This document shows, one piece after another, positions 13,147 through 51,700 of a stretch of 64,000 nt of DNA (within the stretch, counting starts at the first letter, position 1; every line of letters begins with the position of its first letter). This stretch comes from Cetorhinus maximus (Eukaryota), in the NCBI RefSeq assembly GCF_964194155.1, contig NC_135880.1, positions 177,754,001 through 177,818,000 on the forward strand, written 5' to 3'. The translations under genes were made by a program, and so were the position numbers. The notes below the pieces were generated by a model. That model worked only from the letters and a program-made list of their open reading frames with translations, had not been told where the DNA came from and did no database searches.

Positions 13147-16100
13147 CTAAAGCCAAAACAAAAATATTTGAAAGCAGCTGTACAATGGATAGGAATGGGC
13201 TACCAATACGTGTCTTTCATTAAAATTATAAGTTAAAAGCAACTTGCAATAGCTGTTCAAGCATAGCTATTCAAGTTTTAAAAATTGGAATTTAAATTCA
13301 TTAATATTAAAAATATTCGATGAATATTTTGAGCATAAGTGATCCATGCTTCAGTGGTAGCTTAGAATTTCTATACATACACCTAAAGAAATGACAAAAT
13401 TTGTTCCAGCCACTCTTTTATATGGAAGCTGATCAGGGGATCAATGACTTTACCAGTGCATTTATGTATGGTCAAATGTCTAAGCTCCCCGACAGGCAGT
13501 GTTTGCAATAAAGAATTTAAATTTACACAGCATCTTTCACATCACAATACACTAAAACACCTCATGGCTACTTGAAGTACCTTCTGTAGTATGGTCACTG
13601 ATATTTTAGGTAAATGTGGTAGTCAATTTAAACAAATTCGGGTTCTTTCAACCAACAAACATTAGAATCTATTATGGGTGTGTTAATGGAGGGATAGATT
13701 TTGGCCAGGATCCCAGTACCTGAGAATCTTGAACATTAACTGTACAGAGGCTTGGTGTAGTTTTAAAGCATTTAATAGGACAACATTTTGTATTGCAATG
13801 ACTCAAAACAAAATCAGATTCTCATGGCTCAGGATTTGCCTTCAACACCGACTGCTACAGGCAATATAGCCCCACACTCTAGTCCAACGGTTAGTCAAAA
13901 CAATATACTCTTAGGGCATTTTCAAGAAGATATCAGATGCCTAGTAGCACTTGCTTAATCTCAGTTTCAGAATAGGAGCTGCACCTTTGCTCTTATCAGC
14001 ACCAAGAACAGGAATCACATGCTTAAAAGGAAACTGTTATTGCTCAAAGTAGATGGACATAACAAACTCCATTGTAGCCATCTTATATTTCACCTCTCTT
14101 CTATTTTTCCTTAGTTCTGTTGAAGAGTCATACGGACTCGAAACGTTAACTGTATTCCTGTCCACAGATGCTGTCAGACCTGCTGAGTTTTTCCAGGTAT
14201 TTTAAATTTTGTTTTTGTTTTCCATTGTAGCCTTGTTTAAACTGCTTTCAATTCTTCAGGAATTTAGCCAGGTATGTGGACCTGTGGGGGTCAATTCTGG
14301 TTTGGGCTACAAATTCTGGATTACATTTTGGGATGATTCGTAATAATGTAGTTACAGCAAATCATCCATCCCCAAGGTCACAGGTTTTGCAACTCTCATC
14401 CCTAAGGGGTAAAAACTGGCCAAATTAGCCAGAAATATGGCTTTAATCCCAGACCTGAAAAACTGCATACCATCTAATCTCATTCCTAAAAGTTATGCTG
14501 ACCAAAATTTTGTCCAGTTCATCTAATTCAGTACAATGCATTAAACAGGTCATGAAATTAAGTTCAATATTTATTAAATTTACACATTTTGCAATTTAAC
14601 AAAGTTAGAATCCAAGACGAAGTATTAGAAAGTTACTGGCCAATGCATAATTTTTAAAAATTGCATACCTTGAACTGAATGATTAGACGACCTTTTTCGT
14701 ATGGCCTGCGATAAATAGGCATACCCTCATTCAGCACACACTTGATATCTCCATGTTTAACAATGTGGCCTGCAAGAAATAACATTTAACAGAAACATTT
14801 AGGAATCCCAGATTCAAATTACCCTTTGGATGAATTTTCTTCTCAGGGCAACACACTAATGCTGAGTAATGGAACATTGTCCATTTCAGCTACTGAAAGC
14901 AGAAGTCCTTTTACTCTGCCTCAAACTTGCTGCAATTAAGTTTGCCATTTTCTACTTCAGAATGATTTTGCACTGTGATTTATGGGTAATTATGCACGAA
15001 AGCCACATAACCAGACACAGCTGGTAAGCAAACTAACCCAGTGAACCAGTCATTCCTCACCAACATACACTCTACTTACCAGGGTGTGATGTAATGATTA
15101 TAGTTCTTTTATCCAAAGTTGTGATCGGGCGATGGAAGCCACAGAGAGCCTCCACCAGCTCCAGTTCCATATGCATAACAAGGTCCTCCCCTTGCCTAAA
15201 ATAAAAAAAGTGAAGGACAATAAAAATGTGGAAAGACATCACTAATATGTTAGTTTAATGTACCATCCTCACACTGACATCAGCTATTTCACTTTTGAAA
15301 AGACATTACCTTGTGAAGACACTGTGGTCTTTTTGATCGAGCACAATGATGATATCTCCAGGTTCTAAGCCAGGTTCCTGGTCACCTTCACCATGGAATG
15401 TTAGTTTCTGGCCATCCTTCATCCCTTTGTCCCACAAGAAGCAAGAAAAGTAGTTAGACTGGAAGCTCTACAAAACATATACCCTCTCTTCCCGACCCAG
15501 CTTTCAAAACCTATTCCTTTGTGTGTGAAAGCTGCAAAGGACACAAAATAGAGTTTCGTAGGAACACACATCATAAATGTTGCAACCTCAGTTTAGTAAA
15601 AAGGGTATGCTTAACCTTCATTTGGAGGGGCAAGAGACAAATTAACAGTTAACAGGGTTTAAATCCCACACTGAGGCATTAGATCATGGCTGTGAACCAC
15701 GTAAAATGAATAATACACTGTTGCTCAAATATTCATATGCTAAAGTCTGTAACTGCCAAAGAACTAGTACAACTGACCCATCCCCTACATGTCTGGATCA
15801 ATCAGGAGCAGACACTCCTAGAAGACTCCTGATTCCCACCAGTAAAATTAGTAATTTAGCCTATTTAACTAATGTATGCCAAATCTAATAATTGCAACAC
15901 TTTGAACAAATCATACCCTTGTAGCTTCAAGGGTGTTGAAAGGGAATGGGTCAAAATTCTGCTTACTGTTGGGAGCTTAAATCTTTGACATGTTGCAGAG
16001 TTTAAACTCGAGATCTTGAAAGAATTGCTCCAAGCATAAAGTGGGTGCAAAACAAACTCTTCCCAGAATTACGAGAAGCTACTTTCCTAACAGGCTCTGT

Positions 16101-48700: not shown

Positions 48701-51700
48701 TTGAGATGTCCAGTTGCTGTGAAAGGCTCTATATAGTGCTAGGTTTCTTTACTACTTTTCCTTAGGACACTTGTTCAAGTTGCTGAAAGACTGTAAAATA
48801 TAAGCAAAATACTTCAGATGCTGGAAATCCGAAATAAAAACAGAAAATGCTGGAGAAACTCAACAGGTCTAGCATCTGTGGAGAGAGAGAAATAGAGTTA
48901 ACTTTTCAAATCGTATGACTCTTCTTTAGAGCTCTGAAGACGAGTCATATGGACTCGAAACATTAACTCTGTTTCTCTCTCCACAGATGCTGCCAGACCT
49001 CTTGAGTTTTTCCGGCATTTTCTGTTTTTATTTCTGAAAGACTGTGCCAGCTGACCACACTACCATTTATCTACAGCAATAGAAACATGCTAATTAATTC
49101 AGCAAATATAGATACCTGAGAACAGACAGACCTTGAAACTCTGTTTGGAAGTTTATAATTTGTGTGAAAGAAATTATTGATAGAACAATTAGGAAATTGT
49201 TAAACCTTATTTTTCCATAGGCTGCTTAATAGTTCTTTTGTTGGTTAATAACCTTTTTGCTGTTGAATGTAATGTTTATGGGTATTTCAGTGCTTACCAT
49301 TCCACTCATCGAGCTTTGCCATTTATACTCAAATGACAATAATAATAATTTTAAATGAGCAGAGAATTACAGAGAATGTACAGCACAGAAACTACCTATT
49401 TGATTCAGTTGGTCTGTGCTGGTGTTTATGTTCCACATGAGCCTCCTCTCACCCTATCAGCATGTCCTTCTATTCCCCTCTCTCTTGTGTTTATCTCGTT
49501 TCCCCTTAAATTCATCTATACTATTCAACTACTCCCTGTGATAACAAGTTCCACATTCTCACCACTCTCTGGGTAAAGAAGTTTCTCCTGAATTCCTTAT
49601 TGGATTTATTAGTGACTATCTTATATTTATGGCCTCCTTTTTGGTCTCCCCCACAAGTGGAAACATCTTCTCAATGTCTATCCTATCAACCCCTTCATAA
49701 TTTCAAAGACCTCTCTCAAGGCATCCCTAAGTCTTCTCTTTTCTACCCCATCGGCTCAGTTTTCCCTGATAGTTATAACTTCTCAGTTCTGGTATTGTCA
49801 GCTGCACTCATCCAGTCAAGTGGGGAGTATTCCATATCATTCCTGACTTGAGTTGTAGAGGGTGCACAGTCTTTGGGGAGTCAGGAGGTGAGTTAATCAC
49901 CACTGAATTCCCAGCCTCTGACCTGCCCTTGTAGCCACAGTATTTATATGGTTGGCCTACTTAAGTTTATGGTCAATGATGACCCCAAGGATGTTGATTG
50001 TGGGAGAAATCAGCGATGGTAATGCTGTTGAATGCCATGACAGAGTTAAAAGGAAGAAATAATTGGAGCTTGTCAGAAAGGTATGGCAGTACGGGGGGAA
50101 TTTTAATTTACTTACAGACTGGAAAAATCAGATGGGCAGAGGTAGCATAGATGAGGAGTTAACAGAAATAAAAATAAAAATACCTGGAAAAACTCAGCAG
50201 GTCTGACAGCATCTGCGGAGAGGAACACAGTTAACGTTTCGAGTCCGTATGACTCTTCAACAGAACTAAGGAAAATAGAAAAGAAGTGAAATATAAGGAC
50301 CAGTGATAGGTGGAGATAGCCAAAAGATGTCATAGAGAAAAGGACAAAGAGGTGTTGAAGGTGGTGATATTATCTAAGGAATGTGCTAATAAGTGACATT
50401 AAGGGTGAACACCTTTTTGTCCTTTTGTCTATGACATCTTTGGCTATCTCCACCTATTACTGGCCCTCTATCCAGCTCTACCTGTCCCACCCCCCCCTTA
50501 AACCAGCTTATATTTCACCTCTTTTCTATTTTTCCTTAGTTCTGTTGAAGAATCATACGGACTCGAAACGTTAACTGTGTTCCTCTCTGCAGATGCTGTC
50601 AGACCTGCTGAGTTTTTCCAGTATTTTTATTTTTGTTTTGGATTTCCAGCATCCGCAGTTTTTTGCTTTTATCGAGGAGTTAACAATGTTTTCAAGATAG
50701 TTCTTAGAACAGCATGTTCTGGAGCCAACTAGAGAGCAGGCTATACTAGACCTGGTATTGTGTGACGAGATAGGATCAATTGATAACCTCATAGTGAAGG
50801 CACGACTAGGTAGCAAGCGATCATAATATGATTGATTTTTACATTCAGTTTGAGGGAAAGAGGAGTAGGTCCAAGACTAGTATTTTAAACTTAAATAAGG
50901 GCAATTATGAGGGCATGAAAGCAGAGCTAGCTAAAGTGAACTGGCAAATGAGGTTAAGGGGTAGGTCAACATAAGTTCAGTGGCAGACATTTAAAGGGAT
51001 ATTTCAGAATGTACAGAACAGATACATTCCAATGAGAAAGAAAAATTCCAAGGGGAGGACCCACCATCCGTGGTTAACTAAGAAAATTAGAGACCCTATC
51101 AGCAGTATCACAGTATCTTTACAGTGTAGAAGGAGGCCATTTGGCTCATTGAGTCTGCACTGGCTCTCTGAAAGAGCATTCCACCTAGTCTCACTCCCCT
51201 GCTTTATCCCCATAACCTTGTATATTCTCACTTTTCAGGTTATGGGGATAAAGCATGGTTTCTCTCTCCACACAGATGCTGCCAGACTTGCTGAGTTTTT
51301 CCAGCATTTTCTGCTTTTATTTCAGATTTCCAGCTTCTGCAGTATTTTGCTTTTATCATGTTTAATTTATTAGAGTTATTTTAGGAGTCACATGGTGCTT
51401 GTACTGTACTTAGATTTCCAGGAGGTATTTGTTAAGGTGCCAAATCAAAGGTTATTGCAGAAAATAAAAGCTCATGATGTAGGTGGTAACATTGGCATGG
51501 ATAGAAGATTGGCTAGCTACCAAGAAACAGAGTAGGCATAAATGGGTCACTTTTTGGCTGGCAGGATGTAATGAGTGGTGTGCCACAGGGATCAGTGCTG
51601 GGGCCTCAGCTTTTTACAATTTATACAAATGACTTAGATGAAGGGACCAAAGGTATGGCTGCTGATGACACAAAGATAGGTAGGAAAGTAAGTTGTAAAG

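What the first reader, a model, noticed from the sequence alone, without database searches (positions are those of the whole stretch)
14068..50685. Family of hammerhead-bearing, Penelope-derived fold-back insertions with long (12-17 bp) TSDs
Seen: four independent insertions of the same terminal unit, each with an exact long TSD: 14080-14220 (TCCATTGTAGCC, single arm), 36112-37354 (TCCAGCTTTACAAAGAT), 48795-49033 (CTGAAAGACTGT) and 50165-50673 (GAGGAGTTAACA). Three are inverted duplications that fold at different depths (arms of about 100, 200 and 600 bp). All three share one asymmetry: only one arm keeps an extra 35-45 nt terminal segment (aaaagcaaaatactgcggatgctggaaatc-like), while the other stops at the aaaacag/aaaata tract. 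Known: PLEs form inverted terminal repeats, carry a 3' tail extension and encode minimal hammerheads. Inference: this is a stereotyped integration route (long staggered nick plus snap-back or twin-primed synthesis) that yields non-coding palindromic mini-elements, possibly a mobile retrozyme-like family in its own right.
Basis: partly seen in the sequence, partly recalled or inferred. Interest (0 to 1): 0.8.

Follow-up and report, generated by a model that had tools for sequence, protein, structure and literature searches.

The report
Inverted Penelope retrotransposon stub insertions
These four insertions are cut-short ends of an ordinary Penelope-like jumping gene, three of them laid down as mirror-image pairs in a layout already described for such elements; their regularity hints at how the element copies itself but does not make them a separate mobile family.

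Summary
Four insertions carry exact TSDs of 12, 17, 12 and 12 bp, and three are head-to-head with the tail on one arm only. The TSDs are real: a related species lacks B and has one TSD copy, and D's LINE host carries the site once. The units are 5'-truncated ends of an autonomous 3.3-kb Neptune-type PLE (RT plus GIY-YIG). Inverted pLTR, one-sided tail, TSD and minimal hammerhead are all published. A retrozyme or self-propagating palindrome is not supported. There are no tandem units and most junctions differ. The one recurring junction (C type) sits on different template variants, shared by both arms of each copy. What the data add: 37 of 38 inverted insertions pair one tailed with one tail-less end and none has two tails; TSDs are 11-17 bp (mode 14-15); 5' ends pile up at an AG about 30 nt below a TATA-like box. 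Best model, inferred: one element complex primes both staggered nicks at its two RT start sites, and run-off to the transcript's 5' end gives the ~235-bp palindromes. This scan reported the same architecture before in other genomes.

The parts
14068..14079 (.). A: left TSD copy (12 bp)
   Evidence: exact, two copies in window
14080..14220 (+). A: single 5'-truncated PLE 3' end, stops at the tail-less (S) site; TATA-like box at 14084, hammerhead-like motif 14113-14151 with core CTGTTGA
   Evidence: 92% identical to the 3' end of ORF-bearing copy L041
14221..14232 (.). A: right TSD copy
36095..36111 (.). B: left TSD copy (17 bp)
   Evidence: one copy only in relatives' contigs
36112..36730 (-). 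B: antisense arm carrying the tail (36112-36152)
   Evidence: arms identical at 561 of 561 aligned bases, indels aside
36741..37354 (+). B: sense arm ending at the S site; starts in the last ~30 codons of the GIY-YIG ORF (stop 36827-36829); hammerhead-like motif 37255-37293 with core CTGCCGA
37355..37371 (.). B: right TSD copy
48783..48794 (.). C: left TSD copy (12 bp)
48795..49033 (.). C: 239-bp palindromic insertion; tailed antisense arm 48795-48933 and tail-less sense arm 48930-49033 meet at a native AGCT palindrome; hammerhead-like motif 48930-48968 with core CTGAAGA
49034..49045 (.). C: right TSD copy
50153..50164 (.). D: left TSD copy (12 bp), inside an older LINE-like repeat
50165..50409 (-). 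D: antisense tail-less arm with an internal deletion
50408..50673 (+). D: sense arm; hammerhead-like motif 50538-50576 (core CTGTTGA), tail 50640-50673
   Evidence: 95% identical to L041 3' end
50674..50685 (.). D: right TSD copy

Best explanation
The insertions are 5'-truncated products of target-primed reverse transcription by autonomous Neptune-type Penelope-like elements (3.3-kb unit; several subfamilies of different age). SHOWN: the parent element, its tandem pLTR-ORF junction, two discrete 3' end points about 33 nt apart (S and T), 11-17-bp TSDs, empty sites, strict S+T pairing, and arms built from the same template variant at each locus. INFERRED: the GIY-YIG endonuclease makes two nicks staggered by about 11-17 nt. 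One protein complex, probably a dimer on one RNA, uses both target 3'-OH ends as primers, one at S and one at T. The two cDNAs stop wherever synthesis ends and are joined head-to-head through short homology or filler, so the mirror image is rebuilt at every insertion. If only one end is primed or kept, a single arm results (A). Priming at the 5' pLTR-ORF junction of the transcript runs off its 5' end, at the AG just above the hammerhead core, giving about 100 + 135 nt arms (C type). The native AGCT palindrome there makes the same junction arise repeatedly. Confidence is about 0.93 for the identity and the absence of a separate family, about 0.6 for twin priming on one complex, and about 0.5 for the start-site reading.
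For: Parent: 632-aa open frame in L041 with RVT_1 at E 9.5e-06; weak GIY-YIG hit at E 0.33; CX4CxxC linker and CCHH motif. Partial tandems L115, L123 and L128 show the tail running into the ORF start. 3' ends are bimodal at 0 and about -33. Of 38 inverted insertions, 37 are S+T, 1 is S+S and none is T+T; among those not picked with a tail query, 25 of 26 are S+T. Independent ends would give about 10-18 T+T (P < 1e-9). A further 12 of 12 inverted copies picked by arm alone are one-tailed. 24 of 74 single arms end at S and 9 of them have a TSD, so S is a start site of its own. The S arm reaches more than 100 nt further 5' than the T arm in 10 of 37, which simple snap-back cannot give. Arms end within 10 nt of each other in 15 of 37, and in 4 of 20 long ones (permutation p 0.002). 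At 20 loci with an identical junction, both arms of a locus share 33 minor alleles against 18.4 permuted (maximum 32 in 5000), with no T- or S-arm lineage. 5' ends lie 0-4 nt above the AG in 19 of 38 and 6 of 25 copies, with a TATA-like box at -29 to -32. In vitro precedent: two RT start sites bounding the tail, both strands cut and extended, predicted dimer (PMC11167929).
Against: No RNA data and no biochemistry. The C-type junction does recur (205 forward + 198 reverse matches, 0 in controls), as propagation would predict. Arm concordance could also come from early gene conversion between arms. Off-centre deletion of a long palindrome after insertion could make S arms look longer. The excess of longer S arms (11 against 6) is small. 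The automated call gave T+T in 2 of 20 C-type loci; the printed rows show the second arm stops matching after about 75 nt, so I read these as artefacts. D. virilis Penelope has a TATA-less promoter (PMC2377424), and its intron ends at hammerhead helix I (PMC4209133), so the AG could be a splice acceptor. Both Pfam scores are below the curated cut-offs. Samples are top BLAST hits, biased to young and similar copies.
Confidence: 0.62

Rival explanations
1. Snap-back: one cDNA primed at T folds back and copies itself. The copy is then cut or captured at S, for example by endonuclease resolution, which gives the palindrome.
For: Self-priming was proposed for PLE palindromic junctions (PMC3846280), and the tail was ascribed to EN-mediated resolution (PMC8557442). 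Arms end within 30 nt of each other in 20 of 38. Strict S+T pairing and arm concordance fit this model too. A shorter 24-nt junction form that a hairpin would give occurs among the matches.
Against: The S arm reaches more than 100 nt further than the T arm in 10 of 37, which is impossible without later deletion. S is used alone in single arms with TSDs and is an RT start site in vitro (PMC11167929). The commonest recurring junction is a loop-less palindrome (32 loci in the first 100 rows).
Confidence: 0.22
2. Twin priming, but on two separate RNA molecules held by a dimer or paired through the palindromic hammerhead helix III.
For: Minimal hammerheads are thought to work as dimers (PMC4209133). 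Arm lengths differ widely in 18 of 38.
Against: Nothing obvious would forbid T+T, which is seen in 0 of 38. No arm pair from clearly different subfamilies was found: arm-to-arm identity is 0.86-1.00 in all 38. Arms share minor alleles.
Confidence: 0.1
3. One reading: the palindromic mini-elements, at least the C type, are a non-autonomous family that is transcribed and re-inserted as a unit (retrozyme- or MITE-like).
For: An identical central junction occurs at many loci, with TSDs in 12 of 20 and 11 of 18. Two other loci fold within a few nt of B's centre. PLE-derived non-autonomous retrozymes exist (bioRxiv 10.64898/2026.07.22.740005).
Against: There are no fixed differences between T and S arms. 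T-T and S-S sharing across loci (0.65, 0.87) is about equal to T-S (0.78), against 1.86 within a locus. Only 2 of 12 inverted copies chosen by arm alone carry this junction. The junction sits on a native AGCT at a 5'-end hot spot that single arms use too. The two B-like loci have different spacers. No two of 38 centres are the same. There are no tandem units.
Confidence: 0.06

Closest known systems
Complex insertions of EN+ Penelope-like elements: inverted pLTR + one-sided tail + TSD (PMC3846280; PMC8557442; PMC2377424; matching passages seen)
   Same: A 5'-truncated inverted copy adjacent at the 5' end; a 30-40-bp tail on one end; a TSD around the whole unit; partial tandems in which the tail leads into the ORF.
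   Different: TSDs here are 11-17 bp (mode 14-15), against 8-10 bp in the A. vaga examples. The papers say 'often' or 'optionally', whereas the pairing here is nearly absolute (37 of 38). Many insertions hold no ORF.
Poseidon of Anolis carolinensis (PAc), in vitro (PMC11167929; parts 1-2 of 4 read: all results and the start of methods)
   Same: Two adjacent RT start sites bound the tail. Both strands are cut and extended. The hammerhead lies at the pLTR-ORF junction and is dispensable for insertion.
   Different: Clade: this element has the linker Zn-finger that Penelope/Poseidon lack. Start sites here lie in U-rich tracts. Junctions here show a short target-template match (2 nt or more in 24 of 43 against 19% in a rough null), whereas the paper reports no homology. 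The part read does not treat inverted products or TSDs.
Neptune clade PLEs (definition in PMC8557442, passages)
   Same: RT followed by a C-terminal GIY-YIG with CCHH, and a CX2-5CxxC linker motif.
   Different: No tree was built, so Nematis (also with a linker motif) is not formally excluded. No Repbase or Dfam comparison was possible.
Minimal type I hammerheads of metazoan PLEs (PMC4209133; parts 1-2 of 4 read)
   Same: Short helix I, extra unpaired base before helix II, palindromic positions 15.2-16.2, no helix III. The paper notes pairs of motifs 100-700 bp apart on opposite strands in Schistosoma.
   Different: The commonest core here is CTGTTGA (77 of 172) rather than CTGANGA (74 of 172), and the cleavage triplet is mostly GUU.
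Metazoan non-LTR retrozymes (PMC7229834, passages; bioRxiv 10.64898/2026.07.22.740005, parts 1-2 of 5)
   Same: Short, non-coding, hammerhead-bearing and PLE-related; long TSDs when present.
   Different: Retrozymes are head-to-tail tandem repeats with a hammerhead in each unit and make circular RNA. These insertions are head-to-head, of any length, and grade into the full element.
L1 twin priming (recalled, no call)
   Same: Both target nicks prime reverse transcription and leave an inversion inside a TSD.
   Different: In L1 the second primer anneals internally and the 3' end is not duplicated. Here both primers start at the 3' terminal module, 33 nt apart.

Membership tests
EN+ Penelope-like element | Single ORF with RT followed by GIY-YIG endonuclease in the parent element | tested here: met
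   632-aa and 702-aa open frames; RVT_1 E 9.5e-06 and 0.0011, GIY-YIG E 0.33, all below Pfam cut-offs; CCHH-type GIY-YIG motif by eye; window arms A, B, C, D 69-95% identical to L041
EN+ Penelope-like element | Partial tandem forming a pLTR; tail continuous with the ORF start | tested here: met
   L115, L123, L128
EN+ Penelope-like element | 5' truncation, adjacent inverted copy, 30-40-nt tail at one end | tested here: met
EN+ Penelope-like element | RT groups with PLE/telomerase RTs in a tree | not tested
   no reference PLE proteins were fetched; PDB sequence search found nothing at E<=1
Neptune clade | CX2-5CxxC linker upstream of GIY-YIG | tested here: met
   CX4CxxC in L041, L114, L119, L120, L123, L130; criterion
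Neptune clade | Phylogenetic placement versus Nematis | not tested
   no tree built
Minimal type I hammerhead | Helices I and II with GAAA and a palindromic 15.2-16.2 position | tested here: met
   172 motifs (pre-filtered for at least 4 of 5 helix II pairs): helix II pair 4 T-A in 159 and C-G in 4; helix I pairs 1, 2 and 4 standard in 158-166 of 172, pair 3 mismatched (C.A) in 64; helix II folds in 3 of 4 window copies, z -1.0 to -1.6
Minimal type I hammerhead | Canonical CUGANGA core | tested here: inconclusive
   met in C's sense arm and 74 of 172 motifs; not met in A, B, D; no Rfam hammerhead match
Minimal type I hammerhead | Self-cleavage | not testable with these tools
   needs an in vitro assay
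Non-LTR retrozyme | Head-to-tail tandem of two or more hammerhead-bearing units | tested here: not met
   none of 16 tandem-repeat rows in the window has a hammerhead unit (periods up to 500); the four insertions are single or head-to-head
Non-LTR retrozyme | Fixed monomer propagated as a unit | tested here: not met
   arm reach from -88 to -3272; no side-specific lineage at the one recurring junction
Non-LTR retrozyme | Abundant linear and circular RNA | not tested

The most novel reading that the evidence does not exclude
The genome is a natural record of the unsolved PLE insertion step. One dimeric complex on one RNA primes both nicks of an 11-17-nt staggered cut, obligatorily at the two different RT start sites, so inverted insertions always carry exactly one tail. 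When it does so at the transcript's 5' pLTR-ORF junction, both cDNAs run off at a TATA/initiator start site just above the hammerhead. This mass-produces ~235-bp palindromes whose centres map the element's transcription start. It would be a twin-priming mode distinct from L1's and would join the tail, the inverted pLTR and the long TSD in one mechanism.
Probability: 0.45. Interest if true: 0.55.

Novelty: new member of a known kind. Interest (0 to 1): 0.3.

Why it matters
How PLEs make tandem and inverted structures and the one-sided tail is called undefined in PMC8557442, and the steps after priming are unvalidated in PMC11167929. A very high-copy family with near-absolute S+T pairing, a defined TSD range and a nucleotide-sharp 5' hot spot gives countable predictions that the existing in vitro PAc system can test. 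It also explains why such genomes hold many short TSD-flanked palindromes that look like MITEs, retrozymes or microRNA hairpins (B's centre hits mir-4891 at 39 bits, far below the cut-off of 100). As a discovery of a new element class it does not hold.

Tried and rejected
Rfam scan at E<=1: no hammerhead; 2 sub-threshold mir-4891 hits, read as the palindrome itself. PDB sequence search of the ORF: 0 hits. An apparent asymmetric marker at the C-type centre (T for C in 11 of 19 aligned rows) first looked like a propagating unit or heteroduplex repair. It was selected by my query, and is 2 loci against 32 in the unselected pattern rows, so I dropped it. Mixed-subfamily arms, suspected for L030, were not borne out (0.95-0.97 arm identity). 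A spliced first exon upstream of the AG: 19 AG-ending copies match no upstream element sequence beyond 11-nt chance hits, and the longer hits are to inverted arms. A 5' peak at the hammerhead cut site: not seen among inverted arms, but my queries required coverage from above the core, so this is not a fair test. A cluster of ends at -155 to -162 is probably an effect of the query start and is not claimed. Sequence preference of the target: none beyond terminal A and T, which can reflect overlap with the element's ends. Empty sites: A was not examined; for C, relatives' contigs begin 19-25 nt inside its right arm, a weak hint that C is shared; no D-spanning contig was among the pieces shown. 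No earlier notes exist for this genome. Nine paper searches found no paper on chondrichthyan PLE insertion structure or PLE twin priming. Subscription papers, Repbase and Dfam were not searchable, and no supplements were opened.
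Full report
Observation. B, C and D are head-to-head with 3' ends outwards and the tail on one arm; A is a single tail-less arm. The window lies in a 4.0-Gb genome.

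The TSDs are true duplications. In two runs of one related organism, from different studies (X3, X19), a single 1025-nt contig runs from window 36094 straight to 37355, so B is absent and one TSD copy remains. A third run (X9, another organism) is consistent, but only its right piece is listed. X16 runs 4 nt into the element. D sits in an older LINE-like repeat; in 8 of 8 paralogues the site occurs once, with a projected duplication of 12 nt in 6 and 15 and 10 nt in the others.

What the unit is. Copies extend far upstream. L041 holds a 632-aa open frame with RVT_1 at E 9.5e-06, and L123 adds a weak GIY-YIG hit; all scores are below Pfam's cut-offs. A CX4CxxC linker and a CCHH-type GIY-YIG motif point to the Neptune clade by the criteria of PMC8557442; no tree was built. 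Three partial tandems define a 3306-bp unit in which the tail runs into the next ORF start. Window arms match L041 at 92% (A), 95% (D), 83% (C) and 69% (B; 94% in its coding part), so at least three subfamilies are involved. B's arms are identical at 561 of 561 aligned bases, which fits its absence from relatives.

Census. I merged 767 kb of fetched DNA and clustered the hits. Six clusters at stretch edges and seven without a terminal 3' end were left out, leaving 38 inverted and 76 single insertions (74 after dropping two duplicate segment copies). 3' ends fall at two points, T (0) and S (about -33). Inverted insertions are S+T in 37, S+S in 1 and T+T in none; 25 of 26 not chosen with a tail query are S+T, and independent ends would give 10-18 T+T. 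TSDs flank 33 of 38 inverted (11-17 bp; 14 bp in 14, 15 bp in 9) and 28 of 74 single insertions (one spurious), against 2 of 300 controls. TSD lengths include some overlap with the element: 2 nt or more of template match at T in 24 of 43, against 19% in a rough null. Two unselected 100-kb stretches hold 15 insertions, 2 of them inverted, which extrapolates roughly to a few hundred thousand ends genome-wide. Most other loci were top BLAST hits and favour young copies.

Self-propagating or rebuilt? None of 38 centres repeats. D's junction is unique among 40 scored candidates. B's has two near neighbours with different spacers. Against my reading, C's junction recurs: many full-length hits and 205 + 198 exact pattern matches against 0 controls. 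But long copies show that the AGCT at its centre is native, and only 2 of 12 inverted copies chosen by arm alone use it. At 20 loci with the identical junction, the two arms of a locus share 33 minor alleles against 18.4 permuted (maximum 32 in 5000), and T and S arms form no separate lineages. The automated end call gave 14 S+T, 4 S+S and 2 T+T there; the T+T rows show a second arm that stops matching early. The junction is therefore best read as a hot spot, though early conversion between arms is not excluded.

The 5' hot spot. Among copies that reach the hammerhead core, 19 of 38 (C type; 1 unparsed) and 6 of 25 (A/D type; 2 unparsed) stop 0-4 nt above the first base after an AG. A TATA-like box lies 29-32 nt upstream in 6 of 7 long copies examined. 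This is about 33 nt above the predicted cut site. No shared upstream exon was found. I infer a transcription start. A splice acceptor remains possible: the AG follows a pyrimidine tract, the D. virilis intron ends at helix I, and that element's promoter is TATA-less. A TATA plus initiator-like pair was noted in an A. vaga pLTR.

Mechanism. PAc starts reverse transcription at two sites that bound the tail, cuts and extends both strands, is predicted to dimerise, and does not need hammerhead cleavage (PMC11167929). If both 3' overhangs of a staggered cut prime, one at S and one at T, the product is the structure seen here. S alone is used in 24 of 74 single arms. The S arm outreaches the T arm by more than 100 nt in 10 of 37, against simple snap-back, although later off-centre deletion could mimic this. 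Arms ending within 10 nt of each other (15 of 37; 4 of 20 long ones, p 0.002) and shared alleles favour a single template. Identity, end points, TSDs and pairing are shown; dimer, single RNA, joining and start site are inferred.

Hammerhead. Helices I and II are kept, with one compensatory pair in B's subfamily. The commonest core is CTGTTGA (77 of 172), a subfamily state rather than decay, against CTGANGA in 74. Rfam finds none. Activity is untested.

Known systems. Inverted pLTR with a 9-10-bp TSD and an optional 31-bp tail is described in PMC3846280; the inverted truncated copy and one-sided tail in PMC8557442; opposite-strand minimal hammerhead pairs in PMC4209133. Non-LTR retrozymes are defined as tandem hammerhead repeats, a test that fails here. 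Of these papers I saw passages or the parts named under Closest known systems; PMC8969392 and PMC6155905 were seen as passages only; no supplements. Three earlier scan reports on other genomes reached similar readings; they are leads, and I tested their claims here.

Verdict. A real feature and a new member of a known kind. The strict S+T rule, TSD range and 5' hot spot are useful for an open mechanistic question. Interest 0.3.

Noticed in passing
window 37355-37900: B inserted at the edge of a CpG-rich stretch (GC 0.57, CpG observed/expected 0.74). The right TSD runs into AAGATGGCGG, which I recall as a YY1/promoter-type motif, so a young insertion may sit at a promoter.
   Followed up: no
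window 26001-27000 and 60001-61000: Two further CpG-rich kilobases (observed/expected 1.05 and 0.61).
   Followed up: no
window 17738-17843, 25590-25687, 25925-26049, 28044-28117, 51273-51357; 18208-18368, 29714-30076, 39972-40213: More, older fragments of the same PLE family: 3' ends and internal ORF pieces, without callable TSDs where tested.
   Followed up: partly
unit positions about -715 to -732 and -603 to -611 (L038, L047, L082, L100, L121; window B, L125, L169, L170): Second and third clusters of arm 5' ends inside the endonuclease coding region; the first lies at a small hairpin. They could be RT pause sites or 5' ends of RNAs from particular source copies.
   Followed up: partly
L119 about 5967-5986: The filler between the two arms of an inverted insertion is telomere-like CCCTAA repeats.
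   Followed up: no
L112, L111, L037: Inverted insertions with an extra 85-140-nt piece from elsewhere in the element between the arms, suggesting template jumps.
   Followed up: no
L046/L023 7137-10410 (G000:C30:25202500 block): A ~170-nt sense end sits inside what looks like a full-length antisense copy: insertion into the element's own ORF.
   Followed up: no
window 36837-36926: A 23-bp unit repeated 3.9 times without mismatch in B's right arm, longer than the matching stretch of the left arm.
   Followed up: no
window 50070-50790: D's host repeat encodes an endonuclease-like LINE peptide; the CR1/L2 label is recalled, not from a call.
   Followed up: partly
L103, L104, L105: The same insertion with the same flanks on small contigs C471 (twice) and C1242: a segmental duplication or assembly duplicate.
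   Followed up: no
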